From an uncultured virus (IMG/VR IMGVR_UViG_3300047407_000118) (lineage: Duplodnaviria > Heunggongvirae > Uroviricota > Caudoviricetes): a DNA stretch of 64,000 nucleotides. The notes under the pieces were generated by a model. It was not told where the DNA came from and made no database searches. It saw only the letters and a list, made by a program, of their open reading frames with translations. Every line of letters begins with the position of its first letter. The stretch's first letter is position 1. Positions 3,760 to 28,235 of the stretch are shown here, in pieces. The DNA is taken from IMG/VR virus record IMGVR_UViG_3300047407_000118, positions 1 to 64,000 of that record. The stretch is one strand, 5' to 3'. Position numbers and translations under genes: made by a program.

Positions 3760-3760
3760 G

Positions 3761-4390: not shown

Positions 4391-4396
4391 AAATCC

Positions 4397-4424
4397 TATT
4401 TACCCAACACAAGGACTATAAATA
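4397..4424. promoter_or_regulatory. divergent T4-like late promoters
   Basis: TATAAATA at 4417-4424 (+), 5 nt before ATG 4430; TAAATA at 4402-4397 (-), 6 nt before ATG 4390. Confidence 0.65.
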
Positions 4425-4429
4425 TTTCT

Positions 4430-8494: not shown

Positions 8495-8547
8495 GCTATG
8501 ATCCAAACATTTAGTAGGTGCAGCATTTTGATAACTATTTACTCATT

Positions 8548-9375: not shown

Positions 9376-10344
9376 CTATTTCAATCGATTGATATCGGCA
9401 TCCACCATGTCGCGTACTAGGCTACGGAAGTCGCTGCGTGGCTGCCAACCCAAGAGTTCTCTGGCACGACTGCTATTGCCGCAGAGACTGTGTAATTCCG
9501 CAGGACGCTTGAATCGAGGATCAGACGATACGTATTGACTCCAGTGAGGTAATCCCACGTAGCTGAACGCTTCTTGCAAGAACTCGCGTATGGTATGCTG
9601 TTCGCCTGTGGCCACCACATAGTCTCGAGCTTCCGGCTGCTGTAGCATCAACCACATGGCCTCCACATAGTCCTGCGCATGCCCCCAGTCGCGTTGCGAA
9701 TCAAGATTGCCCAGCGTGAGCCGATCGGACAAGCCTAAACGAATACGCGCCACACCGTCGGTGATTTTGCGTGTGACAAAATCTCGTCCGCGCAAGGGAC
9801 TTTCGTGATTGAACAGTATACCCGAACAGGCATAGAGTCCATAGCTTTCGCGGAAGTTCACTGTGATCCAATGCGAATACAGTTTGCTCACACCATAGGG
9901 ACTGCGCGGGTGGAATGGCGTTGATTCGTCCTGCTGCCCCCCGGTGCTGTTGCCATACATTTCCGATGTAGATGCCTGATAAAAGCGAGTGTCGGCACTG
10001 TGCTGCCGTATGGCATTGAGTATGTTGAGCGGACCCATGCAGTTCACTTCCGTCGTGAGCTTGTTTAGGTCCCAACTCACACCCACAAAACTCTGGGCTG
10101 CTAGATTGTAGAACTCTCGTGGACGTATCTGACGCACAAGATGATTCATGCAGCCATCATCTGTGATGTCACCCGTGATCAATTCCACATCGTTTTCGAT
10201 GCCTAGCCAGGCGAGATTTTCTAGATTGGGGTTACTGTAGCGTTTGATCAGACCATATACCCGATAACCACGCTCCAGCAACAGACGAGCTAGATAGGGA
10301 CCATCCTGTCCGGTCATGCCGGTCACAAATGCAGTGGGTTTCAT
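9376..10344 (-). CDS. gmd: GDP-mannose 4,6-dehydratase
   Basis: TGMTGQDGPYL, YNLAAQSFV, QASTSEMYG, PRSPYGVSK, GILFNHESP, FVTRKI, RDWGHA. Confidence 0.95.
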   Translation of the reverse strand: MKPTAFVTGMTGQDGPYLARLLLERGYRVYGLIKRYSNPNLENLAWLGIENDVELITGDITDDGCMNHLVRQIRPREFYNLAAQSFVGVSWDLNKLTTEVNCMGPLNILNAIRQHSADTRFYQASTSEMYGNSTGGQQDESTPFHPRSPYGVSKLYSHWITVNFRESYGLYACSGILFNHESPLRGRDFVTRKITDGVARIRLGLSDRLTLGNLDSQRDWGHAQDYVEAMWLMLQQPEARDYVVATGEQHTIREFLQEAFSYVGLPHWSQYVSSDPRFKRPAELHSLCGNSSRARELLGWQPRSDFRSLVRDMVDADINRLK

Positions 10345-10392: not shown

Positions 10393-10845
10393 TTAGACCC
10401 GAATATCTTCCATGCCGGCCGTGCGCAACCTAACGATATGACCCAGTTGCCACTGTTTGGTATCCAGACCTTTCATGATACCCAGCCAGCGATTGCGCAA
10501 CAGAGCTACTTCGTTGATGATAGTTTCGTGATCCACCACTTCGTCCTCACCGTCCACGTACTTTTCAGCGTCACGGCTGGTTAGCGCTCGAGCATAGCCT
10601 TCCAGATACTTCTTGAAGTGCTGACGGCGTATCCGCCTCAGCTGGATGTTCAGGTAGTTGAGCACCGCTTCAATCTCTTGCAGCTGATTGAAACGATGCT
10701 CGGTCACACCCGGAAGCTCTTTGATGTTGGTTTCCACGTGACCTGAGATACGGCATTCCTGTCTTGCACCTTCTAGCTCATTTTCGTAATGGGCTATAAA
10801 GTCAGGGATGGCACCCAGGCTCGCGACAATACGGCTATACCACAT
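10393..10845 (-). CDS. uvsY: UvsY-like recombination mediator
   Basis: YLEGYARALTSRDAEKYVDGE...KGLDTKQWQL; adjacent to uvsX. Confidence 0.8.
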   Translation of the reverse strand: MWYSRIVASLGAIPDFIAHYENELEGARQECRISGHVETNIKELPGVTEHRFNQLQEIEAVLNYLNIQLRRIRRQHFKKYLEGYARALTSRDAEKYVDGEDEVVDHETIINEVALLRNRWLGIMKGLDTKQWQLGHIVRLRTAGMEDIRV

Positions 10846-11093
10846 CAGTGATCCTGATCCTCGTCATCAAAATCCTCATCTTCGACGTAGTCATCATCCT
10901 CGGCGTCGTCAAGGTGTGCTGCTAGAGCCTCTTTCATGTCGGGATCACTACCAAATGCCGCACGTATGTCAGCGGCATCAAGATCATGATCGATCATGAC
11001 ACTGAGCACCGTGTCAGCTGCTTCGGCACGATCGTGCGGATTCACATAGCGTTTGATCTCGCTCCAGATGTCGGCTACCAATTGTTCACTCAT
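10845..11093 (-). CDS. small acidic hypothetical protein
   Basis: 82 aa, D/E-rich tail, translationally coupled to uvsX and uvsY. Confidence 0.75.
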   Translation of the reverse strand: MSEQLVADIWSEIKRYVNPHDRAEAADTVLSVMIDHDLDAADIRAAFGSDPDMKEALAAHLDDAEDDDYVEDEDFDDEDQDH

Positions 11094-12151
11094 TCTGCTT
11101 CCTCCTCTGTGACATCGGTACTTACCTCAGTACGGAGATTTGCAAAATCTGCCATGAGTCGATCCAGACAACCTTCTTCGTTGCTTTCCCAGGCCTTGCG
11201 GAACAGTTTGGTAACTTCCCCGGTGCTACTCACAAACATCAGCCTATTGCCGTCTTTCTTGAGGATGTTTTTCTTCTCGGCCAGATCCACCAGTCCCGAG
11301 TAAGGGTTCATCCCAGTTTCGTACGGTATCTTGACCTGCACACCTTCAAAGGGTTTGGCATAGCGTGTTTTCATGACCTTGCAGGCAGCGCGGATACCCA
11401 TGACATCCGAGATCTTGTTGCCATCCTCATCTTCCTTGAGCTTGAGCTTCTTCATGGCCACCACGATCGAGCTGGCATAGATAAAGCCTTGTCCGCCCGA
11501 GATCTTGTCATCGGGATCAAACATGTCTTGGCTGGCATAGGTATGGTTGGTACACACCAGGCCCACATTGTAGTTGCCAAACATGTTGACACAGTTACGA
11601 ACCAGGGCCGTGAGCGCCTTGGGTTTGCGCCCAAGATCACCTTTCATGTCACCGGCTTCAAACTGGTTGATGTCCGTGGGTGTGAGCAGCATGCCCAGGC
11701 TGTCAATCACGAACAACACCTTGGGACGCTCGCCATCGGGCAGGGCCTTGTAGTCGGTCATGAATGTGCTGATGGTCTTGGCCACGTCGTCAATCATGCT
11801 CATACTAAGTTTGAGCAGTTTGCTTTCGCTGGTATCTACACCCAAGGCCGTGAGCCAGGCTTCGTCTAGTGCGTTCTCGCTGTCCACCAGCACAACAAAG
11901 ATTCCCTGCTCTTGGGCGTTCTTGATAATGTTACCGGAACAGATGTAGCTCTTGCCCGCGCCTGATTCACCCGCAAACACCGCGACCTTGCCCAGCGGAA
12001 TACCGCGAGTAAAGTCACCGGATATCAAGTAGTTGAGGGCGTAGTTGCCGGTCGAGATCCAGTCTGTGGGATCATTGAAACCGATGGTGAGTCCATCGAT
12101 TGATTTGGTTATTTCCTTGCGGAAACGTGAAACGTCAAAGGGTTTTCCCAT
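11090..12151 (-). CDS. uvsX: RecA-like recombinase UvsX
   Basis: Walker A GESGAGKS, DSENALD, VIDSLG, NHTY, SGGQG. Confidence 0.93.
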   Translation of the reverse strand: MGKPFDVSRFRKEITKSIDGLTIGFNDPTDWISTGNYALNYLISGDFTRGIPLGKVAVFAGESGAGKSYICSGNIIKNAQEQGIFVVLVDSENALDEAWLTALGVDTSESKLLKLSMSMIDDVAKTISTFMTDYKALPDGERPKVLFVIDSLGMLLTPTDINQFEAGDMKGDLGRKPKALTALVRNCVNMFGNYNVGLVCTNHTYASQDMFDPDDKISGGQGFIYASSIVVAMKKLKLKEDEDGNKISDVMGIRAACKVMKTRYAKPFEGVQVKIPYETGMNPYSGLVDLAEKKNILKKDGNRLMFVSSTGEVTKLFRKAWESNEEGCLDRLMADFANLRTEVSTDVTEEEAE

Positions 12152-12159
12152 AATTCACC

Positions 12160-12197
12160 TGAAAAAGAAAGAACTGCGGGGTGGTTAGCCCCGCAGT
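12160..12197 (-). terminator. intrinsic terminator after gp32
   Basis: ACTGCGGGG-loop-CCCCGCAGT followed by TCTTTCTTTTT on the minus strand. Confidence 0.75.
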
Positions 12198-12208
12198 ATG
12201 CGTCAATG

Positions 12209-13225
12209 TTACTGCGTCTTTTGACGAGCCCGGATCATGGCCAGGATGTCCTGGGCGCTCTGACCACCGCCACCTGCTGCGGCTGCTGCGGGTTTCTTCA
12301 CAGGCTCGGCTGCGGCCGGAGCCTCATCGGCATCAAAGGGCGGGTCATCTGCTGCGGGTGCTGCCGATGATGCCGGTGCTGCCTGAGCTGCCCGAGCTGC
12401 AGGTGCGCTCTCGCTGGCTGCAGGTGCCGAACTGCCCGGTGCTGCCACTCCCGCGGGGCGGAAATACTGACCCCAGCGTTCGGCATCATAGGGCTGTCCA
12501 TCGACCGAAGCCTCGAACATCTCTTTGATGACCCGGAGTTCGACTTCACCGGGGCGCTTGGGCAGGAACGTGCTGAGATCATAGAGACCATATTTTTCAA
12601 TGGCCGCTTGTTCCTCGGCTGTGAGAGCCGATTCCTTGCGACTCCATTTGCTGGTGTTGTAGTCAGCAAAGCCGCCTTTCATGGTCTTGGTGATAGTGAA
12701 ATCCAAGCCACGCATGACGTCGGTGGGCAGTTCTTCCAGCTCGGGATCCATCAGGGCCGATTTGATGATTTGGAAGATCTGGGGGCCGATGATAAAGCGT
12801 CGGATGGGATTTTCCGGGCACTTGTCATCGCTCAAGGGGTTTTTGCGGACGAAGCCTTGGAAAAGATAGCTGCGCTTTTTCCAATACTTACGACCCATGT
12901 CTTCAAGGCTCTTGTCCTTGAACCAGTTGCGTACTTCTGCCAAGATCGGGCAAGCATCGCCCCACATTTCCACACAGGGCACTTGGACCATGACCTGTTT
13001 GGTTTCTGCTTCGCCTTTGACGCCGGCAAAGGGCAAGCGGATCATGGCCCGTTCGACCCAGAAAAATGTGTTTTTGCTGTTGCCGTCAGCTAGGAAACGG
13101 AATGATGCGGATTGACCTTCTTCCATGTTCCAGTGGGGATAAATGGAATTGTCGCCGCCTTGTGAATTACCACCTTTTGTTTCTGCTGCCTGTAGACGCT
13201 GCCTAATTTCTGCTAAAGATGCCAT
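12209..13225 (-). CDS. single-stranded DNA-binding protein, T4 gp32-like
   Basis: FRFL, CVEMWGDACPI, YWKKRSY, GLDFTITKT..ADYNTSKW, Ala-rich tail; next to uvsX. Confidence 0.85.
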   Translation of the reverse strand: MASLAEIRQRLQAAETKGGNSQGGDNSIYPHWNMEEGQSASFRFLADGNSKNTFFWVERAMIRLPFAGVKGEAETKQVMVQVPCVEMWGDACPILAEVRNWFKDKSLEDMGRKYWKKRSYLFQGFVRKNPLSDDKCPENPIRRFIIGPQIFQIIKSALMDPELEELPTDVMRGLDFTITKTMKGGFADYNTSKWSRKESALTAEEQAAIEKYGLYDLSTFLPKRPGEVELRVIKEMFEASVDGQPYDAERWGQYFRPAGVAAPGSSAPAASESAPAARAAQAAPASSAAPAADDPPFDADEAPAAAEPVKKPAAAAAGGGGQSAQDILAMIRARQKTQ

Positions 13226-13359: not shown

Positions 13360-15525
13360 CTACTTTGACAAAGCTAGTGCTTTTATTCTCGCCAGATCTT
13401 CATAAAAACTATCGGTTACTGCTCCGCGGTGGTCCATGGAATCAGTTGAGTCTTCGTTTGGACCCGAAAACGTGGCCAGATTATCGCCTTCGGCCATATC
13501 TTCATCGTCATCCCAACCTTTGGCTTTGCTAGGAAAATAACGATGTACCGCTCTATCATGACTTGGTACCAGCTTCAAGCGACTGGGAGAAATATACCAA
13601 CCACGTCCATCTTTGTCTTCGATTCGAACACGACGATCATATGGATCACCAATCATTCTGAATACTTCACCGCCGTCACCATCCATTTCGTCACGTACAA
13701 AACAACCATCGTAAAGTTCAGTATCGTCGTATTCGCCTTCCGCCACACCTTGCTTCGTACGTTTCTTAGCTTGCTGAGACCGATTATAATCATCCAGCGA
13801 AACAATTTTAAAGTTAAAAGCGTCGAGCGAATGTCTACCACCACTCATGCGAGTTAGGTACGATTTTGCGGCTGCTATTGAAGGGAACGCGCCGCCGTGC
13901 ATTGGATAGTTCTGGGAACGTAATCCAGTTTTAGGGTTTACCAAAACATATCCACTGGTATCTAAATATCTTCTACTGTTTTCCTCCATATCTTTTTCTT
14001 TGGGTTTAGGTACAGGATTACCAGCTAAATCTTTGTCACCGATGTAAACTCCCCGTTCATCATGGCTTAGCGGATTCTTTTCAAACGGTTTGCCTTTACG
14101 TGCTGCTTGGGCTGCTTCCACATCCTGCATGGCATCTTGCCAATAGCCTTCCGCCATGGGCTGCTGTGGTTGCGCAGCCGGCTGTGCCACCGGTGCAGCA
14201 GCCGGTTCAGGCGAGGGTTCTGCGGCAGGCGCGGGTTCAGGCGCGGGTTCTTGGGCTTGGGCATCAAGATCGACATCAACTCCGTTTTCTTCCAACCAGG
14301 CCTCGATCACGGGCGCGGCATCAGCATCGGCACCGTTGGAACGGCTGAGATTCTGTAGCCGGTCACGCAGATCATCCAGCATCTGATGATCCTCAGGATC
14401 ATCGCGATCATAACCTATGATATCTTCCAGCTGAGGTATCACGTTCATGCCATCTTCACCCACTGCTAGAGGTTTTTTGGCCAGCAGTTCCTGGATTTGA
14501 TCCACTGCTTCATGATCATGGGCTAGGTCACTGAGACCTTCTGCCACTGTGTTGACCCAGTTTTCAAATATATCAGCTTCTTTCATGGCAGTTCCTTGAA
14601 TACGTGCCAGCAAAGGCAATGCTGCCTCTACTCGCGTATCGATATGCTGCTCCACAAACATGTCTCTGAGATTTTCTACCAGAGTATCAGCCGCAGTGAT
14701 CTCAGCTGGCTGCCAGGATTCGAAATATCGACCATAACCACGACTGTGACCTAACTGCTGGAGATTGGAACGTAGCTGTTGATAGTACTCGCGGGCCTGT
14801 TCTACCAACTGTTGCCGCTGCCCTTCCAGTACCTGACCCTGGTGTGCACGATGGAATCGAGCCAGCACCTTCATTTCCTGGATTATTTCGGCTATGTGCT
14901 GACCGCGTATGTCATAGGGACGACCACCCTGGCGCACATGTTCCAGCATGGCGCGACCGCCTGCGAGATTGGTAAAAGGCAAAAGGAAGCGCTCACCATC
15001 CTGGGTTTCCACAAACAGTTTTTCCACATAGCGATAGCGAGCATCAGTTTCGCCTAGAGTGCGATTGTGTCGTATCATGAGTCGGGCCTGGGTGGGCTGT
15101 CCCATGTAGCTGACCTGGCGCGTACCATAATAACTTTCAAATAGGCTTTCCGAAATAGCCGACATGCTGGCCATGTAGTGCTTGAGATTACTGATATTTT
15201 GTGGGCTGAATGTGTTGAAGCCGTTGTGCGTGGCAAATTGTCCCAGTTGATGCAGGAAATCATACCATTCGTCTTTGTCCCGGGGGGATTCCATGCTGCG
15301 TCCCATGCTGTCCCCAAAAAACAACAGTAATTCTTTGTCATCACTCAGGATCAACACAGCATTGCCATAATCGCGGCCACCGCTGCTGCGATAATCAAAC
15401 CGTATGATATGCGCTTTTGATGGTGTGACATCTTGCCCGGTCCGGGGGTCTTTGGTAACGGGATCAAATCCCCGAGTGACCAAAAGGTCATAAAGTCTTT
15501 GGGCTACTGTTTGTGTTTGTGCCAT
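13360..15525 (-). CDS. large modular virion (probable head-associated) protein with xAEG-delimited C-terminal modules
   Basis: 721 aa; late promoter upstream; PMAEG, DMEEN, QGVAEG, DMAEG junctions. Confidence 0.7.
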   Translation of the reverse strand: MAQTQTVAQRLYDLLVTRGFDPVTKDPRTGQDVTPSKAHIIRFDYRSSGGRDYGNAVLILSDDKELLLFFGDSMGRSMESPRDKDEWYDFLHQLGQFATHNGFNTFSPQNISNLKHYMASMSAISESLFESYYGTRQVSYMGQPTQARLMIRHNRTLGETDARYRYVEKLFVETQDGERFLLPFTNLAGGRAMLEHVRQGGRPYDIRGQHIAEIIQEMKVLARFHRAHQGQVLEGQRQQLVEQAREYYQQLRSNLQQLGHSRGYGRYFESWQPAEITAADTLVENLRDMFVEQHIDTRVEAALPLLARIQGTAMKEADIFENWVNTVAEGLSDLAHDHEAVDQIQELLAKKPLAVGEDGMNVIPQLEDIIGYDRDDPEDHQMLDDLRDRLQNLSRSNGADADAAPVIEAWLEENGVDVDLDAQAQEPAPEPAPAAEPSPEPAAAPVAQPAAQPQQPMAEGYWQDAMQDVEAAQAARKGKPFEKNPLSHDERGVYIGDKDLAGNPVPKPKEKDMEENSRRYLDTSGYVLVNPKTGLRSQNYPMHGGAFPSIAAAKSYLTRMSGGRHSLDAFNFKIVSLDDYNRSQQAKKRTKQGVAEGEYDDTELYDGCFVRDEMDGDGGEVFRMIGDPYDRRVRIEDKDGRGWYISPSRLKLVPSHDRAVHRYFPSKAKGWDDDEDMAEGDNLATFSGPNEDSTDSMDHRGAVTDSFYEDLARIKALALSK

Positions 15526-17124: not shown

Positions 17125-17829
17125 CTATCTAAACGCGAAACGAAATCCCGTGGCCTGTTCCACCGCTTCCACCGTGACCTGATAGCGTGGCAGATCGGCC
17201 ACGGGCAATGCGGTGTTGGGCAGCAGATAGGCCACGGTCTGGCCATTGGCTCGGTTGTGCAGGATCTTGTACAAGCGTGTGGGTATGCCCAGACCGTTGC
17301 CAGTTACCGGATGTCCAGCATCAAAGATGCCGCCCGAAATTACATACCAATCCCCGCCCTTCTCGGCCCAATCCCGCTCCCAGGTCTCCAGCTGTTTCCA
17401 GATTCCGCGGTTGTTGTTGGCCACCTGTGCCACCATGTTTGACAGGAAGAAACTCTCACTCATGATCTGGTCGTTCTGGGTATTGTTGCCCGCGGGAGCC
17501 ATGTGACCTCGGTCGTGTGTTTTGCCCACTGTGGCATAGTCGGCCAAGGTGGCCTGGCAGTTGGCTGTAACGGCCGGATCGGCACGGAAGTTGTCTTTAC
17601 GCTTGGCCGGACCGGTCATTGCGGCCACTGTTAGATGTTCAAACACTGCCACAGGTGCTTTCACACTGCAACGATGGATCACGGCATAATTGGTTTTACA
17701 CAGTTCTTGATCTCCCGGCTGTGCTTGATAAGCCGGTGTGCCATGGCTGGTAAATTGCGGGCATTGGCTGTTGATCTGTGCCCATGAGCTAAGAGGCACA
17801 CACAATAAAAAGAATAGTATTTTTTTCAT
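17125..17829 (-). CDS. DNA/RNA non-specific endonuclease with signal peptide
   Basis: DRGHMAP, ESFFLSNMVAQ..NNRGIWKQLE; N-terminal MKKILFFLLCVPLSSWA. Confidence 0.9.
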   Translation of the reverse strand: MKKILFFLLCVPLSSWAQINSQCPQFTSHGTPAYQAQPGDQELCKTNYAVIHRCSVKAPVAVFEHLTVAAMTGPAKRKDNFRADPAVTANCQATLADYATVGKTHDRGHMAPAGNNTQNDQIMSESFFLSNMVAQVANNNRGIWKQLETWERDWAEKGGDWYVISGGIFDAGHPVTGNGLGIPTRLYKILHNRANGQTVAYLLPNTALPVADLPRYQVTVEAVEQATGFRFAFR

Positions 17830-17847
17830 AGTTCGATCTTTCATAGT

Positions 17848-20530: not shown

Positions 20531-20925
20531 CGTGCGTATCCTGCAAAAGGTCGTACAGGACTGTTTCGGTGCACATAATCAGGTTCACGGCTGCGATTGT
20601 CCGTGAGTTTGTTCACGCGACCTGCCTGCACCATCTGGGCGGCAGCATTGATGATTTCCATGTCAACATCACTATAACAGGCCAACAGGGGATCGCCCGC
20701 AAAGGCGCCCGCAGGTGGCGTAGGGTAATCGGGTGCACCGGCCATGGCGATACTGAATCGCCACTGGGTATAGGGACTGCCGCCCTGCTTGTTGCTGCTG
20801 ATATCGGGCATGCTGATCGCGCCCTTGATAGTTGTACGGTGCGAATGCGGCAGTTTGCGAGAGCTGGCCGGCACATCTGCGGCTCTACCGTAGCGTGTTT
20901 CTGTTACAAATTCTCGTGCTCTCAT
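20527..20925 (-). CDS. MRAREF-family paralog 3
   Basis: MRAREFVTE...SPVRPFAGYAR. Confidence 0.75.
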   Translation of the reverse strand: MRAREFVTETRYGRAADVPASSRKLPHSHRTTIKGAISMPDISSNKQGGSPYTQWRFSIAMAGAPDYPTPPAGAFAGDPLLACYSDVDMEIINAAAQMVQAGRVNKLTDNRSREPDYVHRNSPVRPFAGYAR

Positions 20926-21803
20926 TTGCCATCATCTCCTAGATGCATGTGACTGAAGGGTTTGGTACCGCGATTCTTCTGCCATAGCAGTCTATTACTT
21001 AGTATTTCGACCCAGACATTGGTATCAGGACGATTCAAGCGCCAGAAATCAAACTCGATATGGCTGCTGACCGGACGACAGTAGAGAGTACGCTCCCGGG
21101 GCACACATAGCTGCTGGCTGGTGGTGCGAAATTTCTTGGGTTCGGTACTGTATCGCATGATGTTCAGCTGCGGGTTTGGGATGTTGATCTGGCACATGCC
21201 ATCCACGAGATCCTGGGGAGTACGGGCGTCACGTACCACCTGTTGAGCCTGTAGCAGTCGAGCTCGACTGCTTATGCGATCCTGGGTCTCTTGCGTGTTT
21301 TTGGCGTTGTTTTGGAATCCGGCCCAGGGCAGCCAGATGCCGTGATTGGTACGAGCCACCAGTTGCGTGTGCGGAATCAATTTTACTTTAGATCTATAGG
21401 GTCTACGTCCATCTTGATCGCCGGCTTCTATGAGATACAGTGTTTCTTGATCAAACACCATGGTGCAGCCACCCAGCTTTCCCTGGATCAGGACGTCAAC
21501 TGCGGGTTTGACTTCGCGCTCGAGCAAGGCCCGAGCAATCAAGCGACCATCCGGGCTGGTATCGGCTTCACCTTGTTCAATGGCTCGTTCGTCTGTGTAC
21601 ACATCCAGGCTGGTATTGAGTATGCTGATGCCCTGACTGTTGATACCTTCTTTGTAGCCGGTCACACGATCATGCATCATCATGCGTGACACGCCCCGCT
21701 CGGTACTTTCGATAAAGTCCAGGCGCGGTACGTAGTTACGATCTCGATTCTTGGCCCCGGCCCACCCAATCCCGGGAAAGTATCGGGCCACGATTATGCA
21801 CAT
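20922..21803 (-). CDS. Ntn-hydrolase-like protein (N-terminal Cys nucleophile)
   Basis: MCIIVA...KNRDR, EGINSQG, RTNHG, SRAR motifs resembling C45/NRDE-type Ntn hydrolases. Confidence 0.65.
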   Translation of the reverse strand: MCIIVARYFPGIGWAGAKNRDRNYVPRLDFIESTERGVSRMMMHDRVTGYKEGINSQGISILNTSLDVYTDERAIEQGEADTSPDGRLIARALLEREVKPAVDVLIQGKLGGCTMVFDQETLYLIEAGDQDGRRPYRSKVKLIPHTQLVARTNHGIWLPWAGFQNNAKNTQETQDRISSRARLLQAQQVVRDARTPQDLVDGMCQINIPNPQLNIMRYSTEPKKFRTTSQQLCVPRERTLYCRPVSSHIEFDFWRLNRPDTNVWVEILSNRLLWQKNRGTKPFSHMHLGDDGK

Positions 21804-22662: not shown

Positions 22663-24615
22663 TCACCAGGCTCGGCAGCTCCAATATCTGGCTTTCCAAC
22701 GCGGACCAGGATTGGCACAGTTGTGGCGGGCCCGGAAGCTCTTGCGGCGTTTTGGGTTGGATTTTTTGATGCGCATCTTCTTGTCACCAAAGTTGACCTT
22801 GACCACATTGCCTTTGGGACCTTTCACATACACTTTGCTTTTCTTTACATCTCCGGCCATGGGCTTGCCCAGGGGTACTTCACGTCCTTGGTATTTGGCT
22901 TCCATGGGTGCAGGATCATCTACGTCGTATGGATCTTCCGCATTGTGCTGTTTAGCGTCACGTGAGTCCCACTGTGCTTGTGCATCCTGTTCAGCAGCCT
23001 GCTGATATTCTGGGCTGTAGTCTGGATCAGTGATTAGATACTGAATCATGTGATCGTCAACTTTAGCAGCAATATTGTTACCAGTTACGTCACCACCAGT
23101 TAGTTTAACATGTAAATGTCCGGTTTGTGGATCAGGTGTAGCGATATAATTTACATATCCTTCTACTTCTTCACCATCGTCACCAATCCAGGTAACATCT
23201 GTGCTGCCTTCAAAACTTTCAGGATCGAATCCTTCGTTTTGCAGATGTTCCTCCACGGTTTCGGACAAGGGTGTGGTCTGAGGTTCTAGACCAGCCAATT
23301 CTTGTATGCGGCGCAGGGTTTGATCCGCTTCCGCCACACCTTGCTCTTGGCTCTCACCAAAACGAAACTTAGGGGCGGCACGTAACAACATTGCCACACC
23401 TTTATCAAATTTTGCGCGGTCGTAAAATTTCCCGTTGTTGATACTGGCTAAAATCGTTTTGACGCCAGGTATTCCCAGTAGTTGATTGGACATAAAATAT
23501 GTTCTGCCACCTGCGGCCGCATCAACTAAATCCAACAAATCTTCGGGGTAAAGACGATCTTCATTTTTTGGTGATCCATATTTGGCCCAGATTTTTTCTG
23601 CGATACGTTTTGCTTGCGAAGAGCCTTCCGCCACACCTTGTTCTCTATATTTCTTGGCGACATCTATTTCAATATCACCGTTGCCATTGCGCTCACTCCA
23701 GGCTGCAAATCGTTTTCCGTTGATAGTAACCAATTCACCACTTGCATTGGAAATATATTCTGCATTGTCATCTAGCAACTCACGGTTAACACGATTTACA
23801 TCACGCAACCACTTTTCATGGTTTCCGTAGGTCTCAAATCTTTTCTGCAATAAATCTCTAGTATCAACTGATGGCAAATTTACTCCAGAACGTGGCCCAA
23901 GCATATAATCGCTGGAACTTAAACTACCTGGCAAGCCTGCCTCCGCTACACCTTGCTCATTGACATTATCTCTGACATATAATGTATCTTTGGGGAATTT
24001 TGCGATCCACTTAGCACCGGCTGGAGTTATCTTGTAAATCCCATCCAACGATGAGATTATACCCTTTTTTACTAATTTTGGTAGGAATCTTTCCAGGAAA
24101 TCTCTTTTGATAAACACATTGCCATGAAGCGCACTGGCTAATTTACGTCCAGACAATCCAGAATCTTCGACCTGCTGTAACTGTAGTAACGTTCTTGCGA
24201 CATCTTTTCGATTGAACGTATGTTGAAACTTGCCTTCCGCCACACCTTTGACATGCCAAGTTTTATGGCATTGATGGCATTCTTTCTCACCATCACTGTA
24301 GGTTTTGATGTCGGTACTGTAACAGCCTGGGCAATGTGTACTGGTGGTGGGTTTGGCACCGGTACCTGACTTTGTCTTGGGTTCTGGTTCGTTCTTTTGA
24401 TCTTGGGCCATGCCTTGCTCTTCCAGCAGTCCATAGCTTTCCAAGATCCGCATCATGTCTTCGTCTGCGGCCAAGACCACACCATCTTCCACAACGTCAA
24501 CTATGTGTGACTCTACCAGGCATTCTTCACGGATGTTTATGGCAAAGTCATCACCCACGGCCGGTGCTGCGACCCAGGATTCTGCTTCGTTGATATGGTC
24601 TCGCAGTGTTTTCAT
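22663..24615 (-). CDS. cassette-structured polyprotein with GVAE junctions
   Basis: 650 aa; four GVAE junctions; zinc ribbon and winged-helix-like modules; basic C-terminal domain RRKSFRARHNC..ARYWSC. Confidence 0.75.
   Translation of the reverse strand: MKTLRDHINEAESWVAAPAVGDDFAINIREECLVESHIVDVVEDGVVLAADEDMMRILESYGLLEEQGMAQDQKNEPEPKTKSGTGAKPTTSTHCPGCYSTDIKTYSDGEKECHQCHKTWHVKGVAEGKFQHTFNRKDVARTLLQLQQVEDSGLSGRKLASALHGNVFIKRDFLERFLPKLVKKGIISSLDGIYKITPAGAKWIAKFPKDTLYVRDNVNEQGVAEAGLPGSLSSSDYMLGPRSGVNLPSVDTRDLLQKRFETYGNHEKWLRDVNRVNRELLDDNAEYISNASGELVTINGKRFAAWSERNGNGDIEIDVAKKYREQGVAEGSSQAKRIAEKIWAKYGSPKNEDRLYPEDLLDLVDAAAGGRTYFMSNQLLGIPGVKTILASINNGKFYDRAKFDKGVAMLLRAAPKFRFGESQEQGVAEADQTLRRIQELAGLEPQTTPLSETVEEHLQNEGFDPESFEGSTDVTWIGDDGEEVEGYVNYIATPDPQTGHLHVKLTGGDVTGNNIAAKVDDHMIQYLITDPDYSPEYQQAAEQDAQAQWDSRDAKQHNAEDPYDVDDPAPMEAKYQGREVPLGKPMAGDVKKSKVYVKGPKGNVVKVNFGDKKMRIKKSNPKRRKSFRARHNCANPGPRWKARYWSCRAW
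23326..24249 (-). repeat. four dispersed 18-bp direct repeats CAAGGTGTGGCGGAAGGC
   Basis: Copies at 24232-24249, 23938-23955, 23623-23640, 23326-23343 (spacings 294, 315, 297 bp); further copies at 13735-13752 and 26427-26444. Confidence 0.9.
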
Positions 24616-24617
24616 GG

Positions 24618-26633
24618 TTAGGCCTTATATGCTTTCCACAAGCGAGTCATGTCCTGGAGACTGGACTCAAACGCTTGATTTTCTTTATTGCTGCTGAGTT
24701 TATCCTGTAGGGCCTTTCCCGCCATCTGACCTGCCAGGCTTGCAGCACCTCGTGTCAGTGCACTGGCACCGGATCCCACGGCAGTGCGAGCTAGAGCAGC
24801 ACCAATAGCCGGTAACACTTCGTCTAGTTTTTGGTCTTTTTCTGCTGCGGCTTGTGTCATGGGCTCTTCCCGATCACCATCTTGGTCGATGTCCAAGAAA
24901 TCGGGTTTAGCAGCTTCCTGCACCCCGGCCAGTTCCCGGATACGCTCCAGGCTTTCGTCCATGGGCCGATCACATTCGCATTTGCTTTCGTACATGCCAC
25001 ATTCCATGCATTTGTTTTCGTCGAGATCTTCGGTTTCCTGCACACGCACCGCAGTGGTAGGCATCACGGTCTGACCATCGCCAGCAACATCAGTCTTGGG
25101 TTTGTTGACACCACCTGAGTATTGCAGGGCATCGGAGTTTGTTTCGGTGTTGGTGGGCCATTCCGGTTGATTTTCATCTACCTGCGTGGCACAGGCACAG
25201 GGCTCTTGACCACAGCTGGGGCAGGCATGTGAATCCGGGGTGTGCGGCATGACCCCCACACCAGCACGTTTTAGGAGCTCAATCAAATCACCTGCATCTT
25301 CTTCGGTGGCTGTGACTGTGACTGAATCATTGCCTTCGCTACTGCGGCTGATGTTTACGCTCATGCTTTCAGAGATCATGGCTTCCAGTTCACGGTTCAT
25401 GCTGTCATAGATGCCTTTACCATACTGCATTTTACCACCCGGAGATTTCTTGGGGACATCCGCGGATTCTGACTTGGCTCGCGGTGCCGGGGCTGTCGCG
25501 ACCGATCCCGCTACTGTGGAAGTTTCTTCCACTTCTTTTTTCTTGGTGGGCAGACCTTTTTCTTTGGTAGCAGCAAACTTATGCAGTTCCTTCTTGCTCA
25601 TCTTGGCCATCTCTCGGCTGGCACCGCGTAGTTCGGATTTGGGGATTTCACCCTTCTGTGCCGCATGTGCGATGCCGGCAGCGCGACGCTGGGCCACGCT
25701 CACGGCTTTTTCACCCAGTGGTTGTTCCTGGCCCTCTTCACCAGTGGCCATTTCCCCATCACGTTCGTGTTGGGTCTGCATGTAATCATCCACAGTGGAC
25801 ATCATGCCTTCGATCTTGGTCAACTTCATTTGTACCCATTCAGGCAAATCCTCGCGATCGGCCAGGATCTTTTCCAGGGCCTGGGCATGACGCACGATAG
25901 TATGGATCTGATCCTTGGCTTGATCGCCTTCGTTGCCGTATTCGCCCGCATCATCAGGCTGGGCTCCGGGTGGTAGCTCCTCAGCTATGGCGCCTTTGCG
26001 ATGCAGCTTGGATGTGCCCTTGACCTTGGCTCCGATTTTTTTGCCCCGGCCGGCACCCACGGCCTTGCGGCCCATATGACGTGGCTCACCGTCGTCTTGG
26101 TCATCGGCATCGGGTTCATCTGTCTGGCTCGCGCCACCATAGCGTTTGCCCTGCACTGATTTTACCGGCAGATCGGCCAGTTTGAGTTCTTCGACTTTAT
26201 GGGTGGCAGGCTTTTTCTTGGTTGTCTTTTTGACTACCTGCAGCACACCCTTGGCATCACGCCGGAGAGTTTCTTGGCCACCAGATGCTTTTTCCACTGC
26301 ACGGGTCAGATCGGGTGCTAGATCTCGACCACTGACCTTGGTCTTGGCCTTGGGCGGTTGGTTGAACGAAGAAGATTTACGCACACCAAACTTGTCATAG
26401 TCATCGCTGCTGAAGGGTTTTGGTTTGCCTTCCTCCACACCTTGCTTGGCCTGGCGAGCCGCTTGCTTCATGGGTTCGTGGCGATTGCCATCTTGGTCCA
26501 GATCCAAAAAATCAGGCTTGGCCGCTTCGCCTACTTTGTGGCGCAGTTTGTCCAACACAGCACCTTCTGTGAGCTGTTCCTTGCCTTGGGCCAGTTTGGC
26601 CAACTTTTTGTTCATGTCGTAAAAAAATGTCAT
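24618..26633 (-). CDS. modular acidic/basic polyprotein, probable head-internal
   Basis: 671 aa; two EAAKPDFLDxDQDG modules, QGVEEG junction, DUF3008-like segment, CxxC modules. Confidence 0.7.
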   Translation of the reverse strand: MTFFYDMNKKLAKLAQGKEQLTEGAVLDKLRHKVGEAAKPDFLDLDQDGNRHEPMKQAARQAKQGVEEGKPKPFSSDDYDKFGVRKSSSFNQPPKAKTKVSGRDLAPDLTRAVEKASGGQETLRRDAKGVLQVVKKTTKKKPATHKVEELKLADLPVKSVQGKRYGGASQTDEPDADDQDDGEPRHMGRKAVGAGRGKKIGAKVKGTSKLHRKGAIAEELPPGAQPDDAGEYGNEGDQAKDQIHTIVRHAQALEKILADREDLPEWVQMKLTKIEGMMSTVDDYMQTQHERDGEMATGEEGQEQPLGEKAVSVAQRRAAGIAHAAQKGEIPKSELRGASREMAKMSKKELHKFAATKEKGLPTKKKEVEETSTVAGSVATAPAPRAKSESADVPKKSPGGKMQYGKGIYDSMNRELEAMISESMSVNISRSSEGNDSVTVTATEEDAGDLIELLKRAGVGVMPHTPDSHACPSCGQEPCACATQVDENQPEWPTNTETNSDALQYSGGVNKPKTDVAGDGQTVMPTTAVRVQETEDLDENKCMECGMYESKCECDRPMDESLERIRELAGVQEAAKPDFLDIDQDGDREEPMTQAAAEKDQKLDEVLPAIGAALARTAVGSGASALTRGAASLAGQMAGKALQDKLSSNKENQAFESSLQDMTRLWKAYKA

Positions 26634-27803: not shown

Positions 27804-28235
27804 TCAGCTCTTGCCCTGATGGAACAATTGATCTTCATTGAGTACCCGAAAAACTATGCCCTGTTTACGGCACCAGACCTGGGCCGCGGCCCACTTGTGA
27901 TGATTCAGCGCCACGATCATGCGATCTTTCTGGGTCATGCGACCTTCTATCAGGCTCTGCTTCCGGGGTTTGATTTCGATCAGCTCGGTGCACACCTTGT
28001 TGTGCCGAGTGCGATAACGTATCAGGATGTCGGGCACATAGCTGGTCATCTTGCCCGTGAACGGATTGCGGTAGGGAATGAATACTGGTTCCGAAGCCCA
28101 CTCTAACACATTTTCATTGCGATCACAAAAGGTAAAGAATGAAAATTCCCAGCTGGATCTATAGGTGGGTAAACCTTTGCCCAGGTATTTGCCGGGGTTG
28201 GTGGGTTGGAATTTGCCCCGAGCCCAATGTGTCAT
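27804..28235 (-). CDS. head completion nuclease, T4 gp4-like
   Basis: YRSSWE, WASE..IPY, YVPD, IEIKP, NHHKWAAA. Confidence 0.9.
   Translation of the reverse strand: MTHWARGKFQPTNPGKYLGKGLPTYRSSWEFSFFTFCDRNENVLEWASEPVFIPYRNPFTGKMTSYVPDILIRYRTRHNKVCTELIEIKPRKQSLIEGRMTQKDRMIVALNHHKWAAAQVWCRKQGIVFRVLNEDQLFHQGKS

What the first reader, a model, noticed from the sequence alone, without database searches (positions are those of the whole stretch)
23326..24417. In-frame cassette array delimited by a conserved 18-bp repeat (QGVAEG): candidate shuffled cargo polyprotein system
Seen: inside the 650-aa gene, CAAGGTGTGGCGGAAGGC-like copies lie at 24232, 23938, 23623 and 23326, spaced 294, 315 and 297 bp, with a degenerate QGMAQ copy near 24400-24417. 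The segments between them are unrelated to each other and visibly more AT-rich than flanking genes. The repeat is largely conserved at synonymous positions (one copy, 23938, has two synonymous changes), which pure peptide selection would not require. Known: T4-type prohead proteases cleave after Glu, and processed internal proteins are injected with the DNA. Inference: the repeat is both a recombination handle for gaining or losing roughly 100-aa modules and a protease site that frees each module in the capsid, an integron-like array operating inside an ORF. I know of no description of this as a system, but cannot check the literature.
Basis: partly seen in the sequence, partly recalled or inferred. 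Interest (0 to 1): 0.92.

Follow-up and report, generated by a model that had tools for sequence, protein, structure and literature searches.

The report
Swappable cargo modules in phage polyprotein
A giant lake phage strings unrelated small proteins into one head-protein gene, joined by an 18-letter DNA repeat at which wild relatives add, drop and reorder the pieces and at which the capsid protease probably cuts them apart.

Summary
The 650-aa gene (22663-24615, minus strand) carries four (K/Q)GVAE(G/A) copies with the stated spacing, plus a decayed QGMAQ copy. The modules between them are unrelated and AT-rich.

New here:
- The same 18-mer also lies in two other late genes (13735, 26427).
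- It keeps its synonymous letters across uncultured jumbo phages whose TerL is only 66-79% identical. The motif Ala is GCG in 24/28 and 97/127 sites, against 8-12% in the same ORFs. Invariant peptides of the same family drift freely.
- Homology tracts, contigs from other lakes, one insertion/deletion pair and one order-swapped pair all break at the repeat.

The same phage encodes a T4-type S77 prohead protease. V-A-E|G fits its rule, and [LIVM]-x-E|A precedes the conserved C-terminal domain in 61/67 relatives.

Cleavage and packaging are unmeasured, and no dedicated recombinase was seen. I read it as an in-frame variant of motif-mediated shuffling combined with T4-style processed head cargo.

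The scan noted a QGVAEG-type joint before on other DNA (e1-6066560). Six literature searches found no description.

The parts
22663..24615 (-). 650-aa carrier gene. Layout: N-terminal domain, five inserted or variable modules, C-terminal basic domain.
   Evidence: ORF. Mosaic homology. It lies in a late/structural block between the tail tube and sheath genes and TerL.
24403..24615 (-). Conserved N-terminal domain (aa 1-71). Candidate targeting or propeptide part.
   Evidence: 43-81% identical over residues 1-67 in 38 of 60 homologs. It also heads the short basal forms of 144-434 aa. It matches no family.
24400..24417 (-). Decayed joint copy (QGMAQD, CAAGGCATGGCCCAAGAT).
   Evidence: A contig of run X2 runs into unlike sequence at 24418. 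It has no Glu at P1.
24232..24249 (-). Joint copy KGVAEG (1 mismatch to the canonical 18-mer).
   Evidence: Contigs run into unlike sequence at 24229/24232 in X2, X5 and X9. It is one partner of the X5 joint.
23938..23955 (-). Joint copy QGVAEA (4 mismatches, two of them synonymous).
   Evidence: A contig of X11 runs into unlike sequence at 23942.
23623..23640 (-). Joint copy QGVAEG, the exact canonical 18-mer.
   Evidence: A contig of X2 runs into unlike sequence at 23621.
23326..23343 (-). Joint copy QGVAEA (2 mismatches).
   Evidence: Contigs run into unlike sequence at 23345/23346 in X2, X5 and X11. It is one partner of the X5 joint 23327 to 24234.
24235..24402 (-). Module 2 (aa 72-127), a CxxC...CxxC zinc-ribbon-like module.
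   Evidence: It occurs at other positions in P0002, P0027, P0040, P0046, P0048, P0063, P0064 and P0067. It is 91% nt-identical to L004 up to the end of the 18-mer. Pfam hits are only below threshold.
23941..24234 (-). Module 3 (aa 128-225), possibly a winged helix.
   Evidence: HTH_45 at E = 0.0016 and 18.9 bits, below the 25.5-bit cut-off. Shared with P0002 at 95% identity.
23626..23940 (-). Module 4 (aa 226-330), unknown.
   Evidence: Relatives occur in P0013, P0014, P0015, P0018, P0068, P0070 and P0071 in other contexts.
23329..23625 (-). Module 5 (aa 331-429), unknown.
   Evidence: Relatives are embedded in P0008-P0012 at 71-80% identity. It also exists as free-standing 90-91-aa proteins, P0062 and P0066.
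22906..23328 (-). Segment 6 (aa 430-570). It opens with the L.RIQELAGL motif and holds a 295-nt patch (22945-23239) recently exchanged with a distant phage.
   Evidence: The patch is 97.3% nt-identical to L004, with 6 synonymous and 2 nonsynonymous codon differences of 98. Its breakpoints are not at a GVAE copy.
22666..22905 (-). Conserved basic C-terminal domain (aa 571-650, ...RYWSCRAW).
   Evidence: phrog_7595. It stands alone in Pelagibacter and Roseobacter phages and in Nitrosopumilaceae viruses. It is preceded by [LIVM]-x-E|A in 61 of 67 distinct relatives; here the sequence is PME|A.
24618..26633 (-). Adjacent 671-aa gene with a one-mismatch joint copy (QGVEEG, 26427-26444) that ends a 68-aa N-terminal leader.
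   Evidence: DUF3008. Orthologs carry EVDE|G, DMDE|S, EVDE|S, EVDE|A or SMKE|T at the same position. It forms a conserved gene pair with the carrier gene.
13360..15525 (-). 721-aa virion-structural-like gene with an exact joint copy (13735-13752) and decayed copies (14146-14163 QPMAEG, 13486-13503 EDMAEG) in its C-terminal third.
   Evidence: (phrog_13484). The module at 13980-14156 is 90-93% nt-identical to L003 and L004, where it follows a canonical EQGVAEG.
10393..13225 (-). Context: the T4-type recombination genes UvsY, UvsX and gp32-like SSB, which could act on the short in-frame homologies.

Best explanation
The window belongs to an uncultured freshwater T4-type jumbo myophage. Its 650-aa late gene is an expanded member of a widespread two-domain phage protein. 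That protein has a 67-aa N-terminal domain, a spacer, an aliphatic-x-Glu|Ala site and an 80-aa basic C-terminal domain.

In this phage, five unrelated segments of about 55-140 aa lie between the two domains. Four of them end in (K/Q)GVAE|(G/A).

Inferred mechanism, in three steps:
1. The protein is built into the prohead core.
2. The phage's own gp21-like S77 protease cuts after each Glu. This frees the modules and the basic C-domain as separate small internal head proteins, which probably leave with the DNA, as T4 IPI-III and Alt do.
3. At the DNA level each cut site is written as one near-invariant 18-21-mer, RAG CAA GGT GTG GCG GAA GGC. This gives a short homology that is always in frame. 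The phage's UvsX/UvsY/gp32 recombination, or template switching, can therefore insert, delete, swap and reorder whole modules within and between co-infecting phages without breaking the reading frame.

Shown: the array, the nucleotide-level conservation, breakpoints at the repeat, and the protease gene in the same phage.

Inferred: cleavage, packaging, injection, the recombination enzymes involved, and what the modules do.
For: Array and chance.

The family's basal form lacks the array. Of 31 genes of 144-434 aa, 26 have no match even to the loose site pattern used.

Nucleotide-level conservation:
- In ORFs found by protein similarity, the motif uses GGT in 28/28, GTG in 22/28 and GCG in 24/28 sites. 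The same ORFs use 42%, 23% and 8% elsewhere.
- In loci found with a pattern that left these third positions free, the counts are 111/127, 95/127 and 97/127, against 39%, 19% and 12%.
- 47 of 140 matches to CAAGGNGTNGCNGAAGGN in 122 IMG/VR loci are the single canonical variant, out of 256 possible.
- Control peptides of the same family vary freely. In ARYWSC the Ala codons are GCA 20, GCT 11, GCC 10 and GCG 2 of 43.
- Over 95 distinct sites the conserved block has sharp edges and random flanks.
- The carriers are deeply diverged. TerL is 66-79% identical. Tube and neighbouring proteins are 28-63% identical, while cargo patches are 90-97% nt-identical.

Breakpoints at the repeat:
- Segment ends against homologs.
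- 39 of 157 internal ends of inter-locus nucleotide matches lie in or within 6 nt of the 18-mer, against 3.5 expected.
- Contigs from other runs run into unlike sequence at all five copies, and one contig joins copy 23326 to copy 24232 with 15 shared letters.
- A one-module insertion/deletion pair and an order swap.
- Module 5 also exists as free 90-91-aa proteins.

Protease reading:
- S77 is found in 5 of 7 related records. The two without it are 35-36% complete.
- One of the five is the same phage as the window: 99.98% identical over 13.9 kb, and its contig runs on from the end of the window's record.
- The T4 gp21 rule is L/I-x-E (passages of PMC9026906).
- The MCP-like N-terminus has ALLE|G and the protease tail has AIYE|G.
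- [LIVM]-x-E|A with a free P2 precedes the C-domain in 61 of 67 relatives.
- Orthologs of the 671-aa leader end in [VM]-x-E|small exactly where this phage has QGVEE|G.
Against: - No proteomic or biochemical datum exists. No cultured phage in the 50,697-record collection holds the 18-mer; the best exact run is 16 nt, at chance level. Tblastn with the 650-aa protein matched those records only in the C-terminal domain, and with P0009 nothing at all.
- The MCP, scaffold, portal and protease genes of the same phage contain no GVAE. The canonical hexapeptide is therefore not the protease's general site.
- The QGMAQ copy has Gln at P1. The window's own C-domain junction is PME|A, one of the 6 exceptions among 67.
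- Eighteen bases is short for homologous recombination.
- 118 of 157 match ends are not at the repeat. The 97%-identical patch at 22945-23239 has breakpoints elsewhere.
- Several pieces of evidence rest on short metagenome contigs. P0070 and P0071 come from contigs of 1.3-1.8 kb, where misjoining at a 21-nt repeat cannot be excluded.
- No circle junction was seen.
- No module has a named function: 0 families for 28 of 30 homologs and sub-threshold hits for the other two, and only sub-threshold hits here.
- The binomial P values treat sites as independent, which they are not.
Confidence: 0.55

Rival explanations
1. The joint is a swap point only. The 18-mer is a recombination joint and QGVAEG is just a flexible linker. 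The protein stays whole as a multi-domain 'polyvalent' head or injected protein and is not cut at these sites.
For: All the recombination evidence applies equally. No cleavage has been measured. The core head genes lack GVAE. Some polyvalent proteins are packaged unprocessed, such as the N4 virion RNA polymerase (passages of PMC5512222).
Against: The peptide keeps an aliphatic-x-Glu|small pattern even in decayed copies (PMAE|G, DMAE|G, GMAE|E, GVEE|G). Orthologous positions carry generic [VM]-x-E|small sites. The C-domain junction is [LIVM]-x-E|A in 61/67 relatives. An S77 protease is encoded in the same phage.
Confidence: 0.2
2. The joint is a cut site only. QGVAE|G is an optimal protease site, and the nucleotide identity has another cause: an RNA-level signal such as an SD-like pause (AAGGUG, GGAAGG), rare-codon slowing between domains, or a binding site for an unknown factor. 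Module boundaries coincide with it only because it is the linker.
For: GTG and GCG are rare codons in these AT-rich genes. AGGUG resembles a Shine-Dalgarno core (my reading of the sequence).
Against: - Generic sites at orthologous positions work without the canonical letters, so cleavage does not need them.
- The conserved block also includes common codons (CAA, GGT, GAA) and a G-ending preceding codon, which rare-codon slowing would not require.
- Flanks are random, so no conserved RNA fold is possible.
- No antisense copy exists in the window.
- 3 of 5 related large records encode bS21. Freshwater bS21 jumbo phages are predicted to infect Bacteroidetes, whose anti-SD is sequestered (passages of PMC9723584). 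I have not shown that this phage belongs to that group.
- Sub-8-mers of the element are not enriched elsewhere in the record, apart from CAAGGTGT (23 times) and AAGGTGTG (6 times); I attribute the former to the collagen-like fibre genes, unchecked. This argues against a Chi-like signal.
- The insertion/deletion pair, the order swap and the X5 joint are recombination products at the repeat, whatever else it does.
Confidence: 0.12
3. A dedicated site-specific machine (a nuclease, recombinase or homing-type enzyme) recognises the 18-21-mer and moves the cassettes. This would be a true integron-like system inside ORFs.
For: The conservation is extreme, sharply bounded and spans lineages, which is typical of a protein recognition site. 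The window holds a TnsA-like endonuclease domain ORF (27804-28235) and an Endonuclease_NS ORF (17125-17844) in the same late block.
Against: No integrase or transposase family was named among the ORFs scanned (23 with Pfam, 50 with PHROGs). The element is not palindromic and has no inverted-repeat arms (sequence). No circle junction was seen. The two nucleases have ordinary phage readings (head-closure phrog_218, nuclease phrog_14168). Exchange also occurs away from the element.
Confidence: 0.08
4. Artefact or ordinary repeat: assembly chimeras, or a peptide repeat kept by protein selection alone.
For: Data are metagenome assemblies only. Some comparison contigs are short.
Against: The same array appears in the window's record, in two further IMG/VR contigs, and in Logan contigs of two other runs with 0 differences across the copies. 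The 18-mer is shorter than the 31-letter words of those contigs. Peptide selection alone is excluded by the same-family control and the same-ORF codon background.
Confidence: 0.03

Closest known systems
T4 internal proteins IPI, IPII, IPIII and Alt: a capsid-targeting propeptide removed by the gp21 prohead protease (passages of PMC9026906)
   Same: Small, often basic proteins are built into the prohead core. They are cut after Glu at an aliphatic-x-Glu site by an S77 protease and ejected with the DNA. The review itself suggests the targeting sequence is an evolutionary way to load varied proteins. The genome here has the same protease family and the same site pattern.
   Different: T4 encodes each cargo as its own gene with a 10-residue leader. 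Here several unrelated cargos sit in one reading frame behind a 67-aa domain that shows no likeness to the T4 leader. The joint is conserved at the nucleotide level across distant phages. Cleavage and packaging are not shown here.
Ejection and inner-body proteins of phiKZ, 201phi2-1 and SPN3US, processed by gp175/gp245 (passages of PMC10052503)
   Same: Jumbo phages with many packaged proteins cut after Glu at a short motif (AXE in SPN3US). Several cuts fall within one precursor, for example gp53.
   Different: There the extra cuts degrade long propeptides of paralogous proteins. No beads-on-a-string arrangement of unrelated modules is described, and no DNA-level repeat. The motif differs in P3: Ala there, Val here.
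Polyvalent proteins of phages and conjugative elements (Iyer et al. 2017, PMC5512222; passages)
   Same: One polypeptide of 2-15 unrelated domains shows extensive mosaicism. It is predicted to be packaged in the capsid and delivered with the DNA, possibly released by proteolysis.
   Different: Those proteins are defined by known effector domains and by their own MPTase-type peptidase domains. The word 'linker' does not occur in that text, and no conserved joint or recombination role is described in the passages I saw. Here no module matches a named family. The paper's supplementary lists were not open to me.
Motif-mediated modular shuffling in T4-type phages: PeSL regulatory cassettes (Arbiol 2010, PMC2839356, abstract; Comeau 2014, PMC4122927, listing only) and the glycine-rich motifs of gp38 adhesins (Trojet 2011, PMC3157838, passages)
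   Same: Short conserved sequences flank hypervariable segments, and exchanges occur within or near them. In gp38 the motifs lie in frame, inside a gene.
   Different: PeSLs are intergenic promoter-terminator units that form mini-circles. The gp38 motifs are structural core elements of one folded domain and keep their order. Here the motif is a probable protease site between autonomous modules, module number and order vary, and no circles were seen.
Polymorphic toxin systems (Rhs DPxGL, CdiA VENN, MuF-toxin fusions).
   Same: A short conserved peptide marks both a processing point and the border at which variable C-terminal modules are replaced by recombination.
   Different: Those systems have one variable toxin tip per protein, with an immunity gene. 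Here there are tandem multi-module arrays with no toxin or immunity signature.

Membership tests
Substrate of a T4-type (S77, gp21-like) prohead protease / processed internal head protein | The same phage encodes an S77 prohead protease | tested here: met
   PF03420 at E = 2e-24 in G001. G001 is the same phage: L001 is 99.98% identical to the window over 13,950 nt, and L009 overlaps the end of the window's record at 100%.
Substrate of a T4-type (S77, gp21-like) prohead protease / processed internal head protein | Site of the form aliphatic-x-Glu followed by a small residue | tested here: met
   V-A-E|G or V-A-E|A at four copies. The rule is L/I-x-E in T4. Val at P3 is an extension of that rule. 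The QGMAQ copy does not meet it.
Substrate of a T4-type (S77, gp21-like) prohead protease / processed internal head protein | The site is conserved in position across orthologs while P2 varies | tested here: met
   61 of 67 C-domain junctions are [LIVM]-x-E|A. At least 5 of 8 orthologous leaders of the neighbouring gene end in [VM]-x-E|small.
Substrate of a T4-type (S77, gp21-like) prohead protease / processed internal head protein | Cleavage observed; protein present in virions and ejected | not testable with these tools
   No cultured relative carries the motif, and no proteome is available.
Substrate of a T4-type (S77, gp21-like) prohead protease / processed internal head protein | N-terminal capsid-targeting sequence | tested here: inconclusive
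   A conserved 67-aa N-domain exists, but it matches no family and its targeting role is untested.
Polyvalent proteins (Iyer et al. 2017) | Two to fifteen unrelated domains in one polypeptide of a phage, with mosaic relatives | tested here: met
   Seven segments, unrelated to each other. Homologs are mosaic.
Polyvalent proteins (Iyer et al. 2017) | Domains belong to known conflict or effector families, often with an own peptidase domain | tested here: not met
   0 Pfam families for the 650-aa protein. Of 30 homologs, 28 have none and 2 have only sub-threshold hits. The single modules give only sub-threshold hits.
Integron | Adjacent IntI-type tyrosine recombinase | tested here: not met
   No integrase family was named among the window ORFs scanned: 23 with Pfam and 50 with PHROGs. 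The scan is not exhaustive for small ORFs.
Integron | attC-type imperfect inverted repeats that fold as single strands | tested here: not met
   The 18-mer has no inverted-repeat symmetry (sequence), and its flanks are random.
Integron | Excised circular cassettes | tested here: inconclusive
   No circle junction appeared in four runs laid as contigs. Contigs drop rare forms.
Motif-mediated modular shuffling of T4-type phages (PeSL / gp38 GRM type) | A short conserved sequence flanks variable segments, and exchange breakpoints lie at it | tested here: met
Motif-mediated modular shuffling of T4-type phages (PeSL / gp38 GRM type) | The motif is a promoter plus terminator stem-loop (PeSL) | tested here: not met
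   The element lies in frame inside ORFs and encodes QGVAEG.

The most novel reading that the evidence does not exclude
The 18-21-mer is a community-wide standard connector. It is a dual-coded element kept at the nucleotide level because it lets a whole clade of lake jumbo phages plug, unplug and reorder injected effector modules in frame across genera. Each module is then set free by the head protease. In effect this is a cassette exchange system that works inside open reading frames, possibly helped by an as yet unrecognised enzyme that acts on the element.
Probability: 0.3. Interest if true: 0.9.

Novelty: new variant of a known kind. Interest (0 to 1): 0.74.

Why it matters
If the reading holds, it shows how large phages diversify the proteins they inject ahead of their genome. 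One short sequence serves both as a proteolytic release site and as an in-frame recombination joint, so that unrelated small proteins can be traded between distant phages without ever breaking a gene.

It would explain a striking case of synonymous-site conservation in viral dark matter. It points to dozens of unnamed modules of about 50-280 aa as candidate early-acting or anti-defence cargo. It also offers a natural design rule for loading custom proteins into T4-type capsids.

It makes a long-standing idea directly testable: that capsid-targeting and processing signals are an evolutionary device for acquiring new cargo.

Tried and rejected
There is therefore no fold, no linker-disorder check and no fold search. 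I did not try another route.
- Pfam, PHROGs, the PDB sequence search and the protein atlas gave no named family for the N-domain or the modules. The C-domain has only phrog_7595 and a 25%-share DUF5754 lead.
- Tblastn of P0009 against cultured phages found no match. The whole 650-aa protein matched cultured phages only in its C-domain.
- A Chi-like hotspot is rejected. Sub-8-mers are not enriched outside the copies, apart from CAAGGTGT (23 times) and AAGGTGTG (6 times); I attribute the former to the collagen-like fibre genes, unchecked.
- Bacterial and archaeal genomes hold 56 loci with the exact 18-mer. Nearly all are single hits in high-GC genomes, near the rough chance level I estimated. 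The exception is one 8.9-kb contig of a Bacteroidetes MAG with 3 copies (L223), not followed up.
- Module clustering by single linkage merged the terminal segments into one large cluster. I use it only for rough counts: 79 inner modules, median 79 aa, 46 of 60 clusters singletons.
- Circle or 'goes back' joints: the one found (24374 to 22903 in X11) has 1028 other letters between, so it is a replacement, not a circle.
- Parts of the stretch without contig cover in X9 and X11 are not used as evidence.
- Context of the stand-alone C-domain genes in Phage C48C1 and HTVC008M: all neighbours are hypothetical.
- Earlier notes of this scan for this genome: none.
- One paper search failed on a too-short term and was not repeated.
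Full report
**1. What is there**

The 650-aa ORF at 22663-24615 (minus strand) contains four copies of a hexapeptide joint:
- KGVAEG at 24232.
- QGVAEA at 23938.
- QGVAEG at 23623.
- QGVAEA at 23326.

It also has a decayed QGMAQD at 24400.

Five matches to the 18-mer at 3 or fewer mismatches occur in the window, against 0.06 expected. None of 100 shuffles reached five.

The segments between the copies are unrelated to each other; the best pair has E = 0.063. They are AT-rich: GC 0.405-0.476 and GC3 0.33-0.45, against 0.52 for the two terminal domains and 0.485-0.56 for neighbouring genes.

Two of the five window matches lie outside the gene:
- An exact copy at 13735 in a 721-aa gene whose N-terminal part resembles virion structural proteins of PA5oct-like jumbo phages.
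- A one-mismatch copy (QGVEEG) at 26427, near the start of the adjacent 671-aa gene.

Decayed copies (QPMAEG, EDMAEG) also sit in the 721-aa gene.

**2. The phage**

The window encodes:
- A T4-type large terminase.
- A 1215-aa sheath and tube proteins.
- UvsX, UvsY and a gp32-like protein.
- Huge collagen-like fibres.

An IMG/VR contig of 115 kb is the same phage. It is 99.98% identical over 13,950 nt and runs on from the end of the window's 72-kb record at 100% identity. CheckV rates it 33% complete, so the genome is probably around 300 kb or more.

That contig encodes a Peptidase_S77 (gp21-like) prohead protease. Beside it lie scaffold-like, MCP-like and portal-like genes.

Related large records of 181-339 kb share TerL at 66-79% identity. 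Of seven related records searched, S77 was found in 5; the two without it are 35-36% complete. Of five searched, 3 encode ribosomal protein bS21.

All 19 sequencing runs that hold the gene or part of it are labelled metagenome, 16 of them freshwater. A published group of freshwater bS21 jumbo myophages is predicted to infect Bacteroidetes (passages of PMC9723584). I have not shown that this phage belongs to that group.

**3. The protein family**

Sixty homologs match the 650-aa protein at up to 97% identity, but over only 6-38% of its length. Their BLASTP segments begin and end at residues 64-80, 127-129, 217-225, 318-336 and 418-432. These lie next to the motif ends at 71, 127, 225, 330 and 429.

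The shared parts are the 67-aa N-terminal domain and the last 80-220 residues.

In 31 loci found through the N-domain, the gene is short (144-434 aa). It consists of the N-domain, a spacer and the basic C-domain ending RYWSCRAW. Of these 31, 26 have no match even to a loose site pattern. The array is therefore an expansion inside a widespread two-domain gene.

Modules also ride on other carriers:
- Proteins ending in DUF6321.
- The 721-aa structural protein.
- Long ORFs of 911-1124 aa in related contigs.

Module 5 also exists as free 90-91-aa proteins.

No module matches a Pfam family above threshold. The only hints are a zinc ribbon (module 2) and a winged helix (module 3, 18.9 bits against a 25.5-bit cut-off).

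**4. Nucleotide-level conservation**

This is the strongest result. The window uses GCG, its rarest Ala codon (13% in 45 genes), in 5 of 5 GVAE copies.

Contigs of GC 0.41-0.45 write the joint with the same letters.

In ORFs found by protein similarity alone, the motif codons compare with the rest of the same ORFs as follows:

| Codon | At the motif | Elsewhere in the same ORFs |
|---|---|---|
| GGT (Gly) | 28/28 | 42% |
| GTG (Val) | 22/28 | 23% |
| GCG (Ala) | 24/28 | 8% |

It returned 122 loci and 140 matches. Of these, 47 are the one canonical variant out of 256 possible, and 12 more differ only in the last letter. These sit in frame in long ORFs of contigs with GC 0.33-0.55. The other variants are mostly out of frame or in short ORFs of GC-rich contigs.

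In those loci the motif uses GGT in 111/127, GTG in 95/127 and GCG in 97/127 sites, against 39%, 19% and 12% elsewhere in the same ORFs.

As a control, invariant peptides in the C-domain of the same family drift freely. In ARYWSC the Ala codons are GCA 20, GCT 11, GCC 10 and GCG 2 of 43, and the other residues are similar.

Over 95 distinct sites the conserved block is RAG CAA GGT GTG GCG GAA GGC, with random flanks on both sides. Positions -3 to -1, 12 and 13 are partly fixed by how the loci were found.

The binomial P values assume independent sites and overstate the case. The direction is not in doubt.

The element is confined to a few genes per genome. It occurs 3-7 times per record at 1 or fewer mismatches, clustered, and on one strand in four of the five records. 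The backwards-read control gave 0-1. In the window, all five matches lie on the coding strand of their ORFs.

**5. Exchange at the joint**

- The phage of L003/L004 is syntenic with the window's but distant. Tube and neighbouring proteins are 28-63% identical, and the tube gene about 70% at the nucleotide level. Even so, three patches inside the cargo genes are 90-97% nt-identical. One of them ends exactly at the end of the 18-mer at 24232. Another begins at a canonical EQGVAEG in L003, where the window has QPMAEG.
- Among 60 loci with 114 canonical sites, 39 of 157 internal ends of inter-locus nucleotide matches fall in or within 6 nt of an 18-mer, against 3.5 expected.
- Contigs of four other freshwater runs were laid on the region. 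They run into unlike sequence at 23345/6, 23621, 23942, 24229/32 and 24418, which are the edges of all five copies. One X5 contig (depth 40) joins 23327 to 24234 with 15 letters common to both sides. That links the last copy to the first and skips modules 3-5. The 18-mer is shorter than the 31-letter words of those contigs, so it should not by itself cause misjoins.
- P0064 equals P0063 plus one 75-aa module lying between two GMAE copies.
- P0070 and P0071 share a head and carry two modules in opposite order. These come from contigs of 1.3-1.8 kb, so misassembly cannot be excluded for this pair.

Not all exchange uses the joint. The 295-nt patch at 22945-23239 is 97.3% identical to L004, with 6 synonymous and 2 nonsynonymous codon differences, and its breakpoints lie elsewhere. 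In addition, 118 of the 157 match ends are not at a joint.

**6. Is it a protease site?**

T4 gp21 cuts after Glu at L/I-x-E. Core proteins are cut many times, and internal proteins lose a targeting propeptide (passages of PMC9026906). The giant phage SPN3US uses AXE and cuts some precursors several times (passages of PMC10052503).

Here V-A-E|G fits, with Val at P3.

In the same phage:
- The MCP-like protein starts MSEQLLESRWEETKEALLE|G.
- The protease has AIYE|G near its C-terminus.
- The scaffold-like protein has 12 [LIVM]-x-E-[GAS] sites.

None of these has GVAE, so the full hexapeptide is not required by the enzyme.

Two comparative tests support a cut site:
- The conserved start of the C-domain, (E/K)Y(Q/H/R)GR, is directly preceded by [LIVM]-x-E|A in 61 of 67 distinct relatives. 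P2 is free (D, Y, E, A, S, G, T and others). The window itself has PME|A.
- The 68-aa leader of the 671-aa neighbour ends in QGVEE|G here. In orthologs it ends in EVDE|G, DMDE|S, EVDE|S, EVDE|A or SMKE|T (at least 5 of 8 loci).

The position and the aliphatic-x-Glu|small pattern are therefore kept while the letters change. This also shows that the canonical 18-mer is not needed for cutting, so its nucleotide conservation needs another cause.

Cleavage, packaging and ejection remain unmeasured. No cultured phage carries the element.

**7. Mechanism I think most likely (about 0.55 for the whole)**

The carrier is loaded into the prohead core. The S77 protease cuts at each joint and before the C-domain. 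The modules and the basic C-domain remain as small internal proteins that leave with the DNA.

The canonical 18-21-mer is an in-frame microhomology. At it, the phage's own recombination system (UvsX, UvsY and gp32 at 10393-13225), or template switching, creates insertions, deletions, swaps and permutations.

Fresh joints are letter-perfect. Older ones decay within what the protease tolerates: PMAE|G, GMAE|E, GVEE|G, QGMAQ. High turnover, or selection on lineages that keep exchangeable joints, would then explain the conservation.

**8. Rivals**

- A swap joint without cleavage (0.2).
- A cut site whose letters are kept for an RNA-level reason (0.12).
- A dedicated enzyme acting on the element (0.08).
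- Artefact or peptide selection alone (0.03, contradicted).

**9. Known and new**

The closest known things are:
- T4 internal proteins.
- The processed ejection proteins of phiKZ-like phages.
- Polyvalent proteins (PMC5512222, passages).
- Motif-mediated shuffling in T4-type phages: PeSLs (PMC2839356, abstract) and the gp38 glycine-rich motifs (PMC3157838, passages).

None of the texts I saw describes a protease-site-encoding repeat, conserved at synonymous sites, that delimits swappable modules inside head-protein genes.

The string GVAEG occurs in 4 papers, none about phages. Five concept searches found no such description. The library lacks most subscription journals, and supplements were closed.

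Earlier notes of this scan report a QGVAEG-type joint in another lake jumbo phage, and similar cut-site-like joints with other peptides in other viruses. They agree with this reading but are unchecked AI notes, not independent evidence.

I class this as a new variant of a known kind.

Noticed in passing
window 24618-26633 (-): The 671-aa gene carries the motif AAKPDFLD(L/I)DQDG(N/D)R.EPM.QAA twice, near residue 38 and near residue 595, with DUF3008 in the middle. Its homolog sits directly upstream of the N/C-domain gene in many loci, so the two form a conserved gene pair.
   Followed up: partly
window 23280-23310 (-), 24920-24945 (-); L009 7701-8792: A second short motif, L.RI(Q/R)ELAG(M/L/V), follows the last GVAE in 29 of 61 homologs. 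It recurs in the 671-aa protein (ERIRELAGV). It also resembles the very C-terminus of the scaffold-like protein next to the protease (IELKRLAGL*). It may be a core-binding tag.
   Followed up: partly
window 22945-23239: A 295-nt patch is 96-97% identical to phages of GC 0.41-0.42 whose core genes are only about 70% identical. There it forms the C-terminus of a different protein. Its breakpoints are not at a GVAE copy.
   Followed up: yes
window 22666-22905 (-): The 80-aa basic C-domain (phrog_7595) stands alone as a small gene in Pelagibacter and Roseobacter podophages, in Methylophilales and Flavobacterium myophages, and in Nitrosopumilaceae spindle-shaped viruses. This is a very wide range for one small domain.
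   Followed up: partly
window 20922-21803 (-): A 293-aa ORF begins MCIIVARYF and has no Pfam or PHROG match. From memory, a Cys at position 2 recalls Ntn-type hydrolases.
   Followed up: no
window 27804-28235 (-) and 17125-17844 (-): A TnsA-like endonuclease N-terminal domain ORF (also phrog_218, 'head closure') and an Endonuclease_NS ORF next to the terminase both lie in the late block.
   Followed up: no
window 50765-58141 (-), 58194-61490 (-): Two very large collagen-like tail fibre genes of 2458 and 1098 aa. They probably account for the 23 extra CAAGGTGT 8-mers (inference).
   Followed up: no
window 2258-10344: A block of sugar and envelope genes: GDP-mannose 4,6-dehydratase, glycosyltransferases, and a heptose kinase/adenylyltransferase-like ORF.
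   Followed up: no
G002:150147-150302, G003:48204-48359, G004:151592-151747: Related jumbo records encode ribosomal protein bS21, in 3 of 5 searched. This links the group to published freshwater bS21 phages predicted to infect Bacteroidetes.
   Followed up: partly
L223 (contig of a Bacteroidetes MAG, 8.9 kb), 108-977: Three exact 18-mers are spaced 357 and 495 nt apart in a contig binned with an uncultured Bacteroidetes genome. It is either a mis-binned phage contig or a hint at the host.
   Followed up: no
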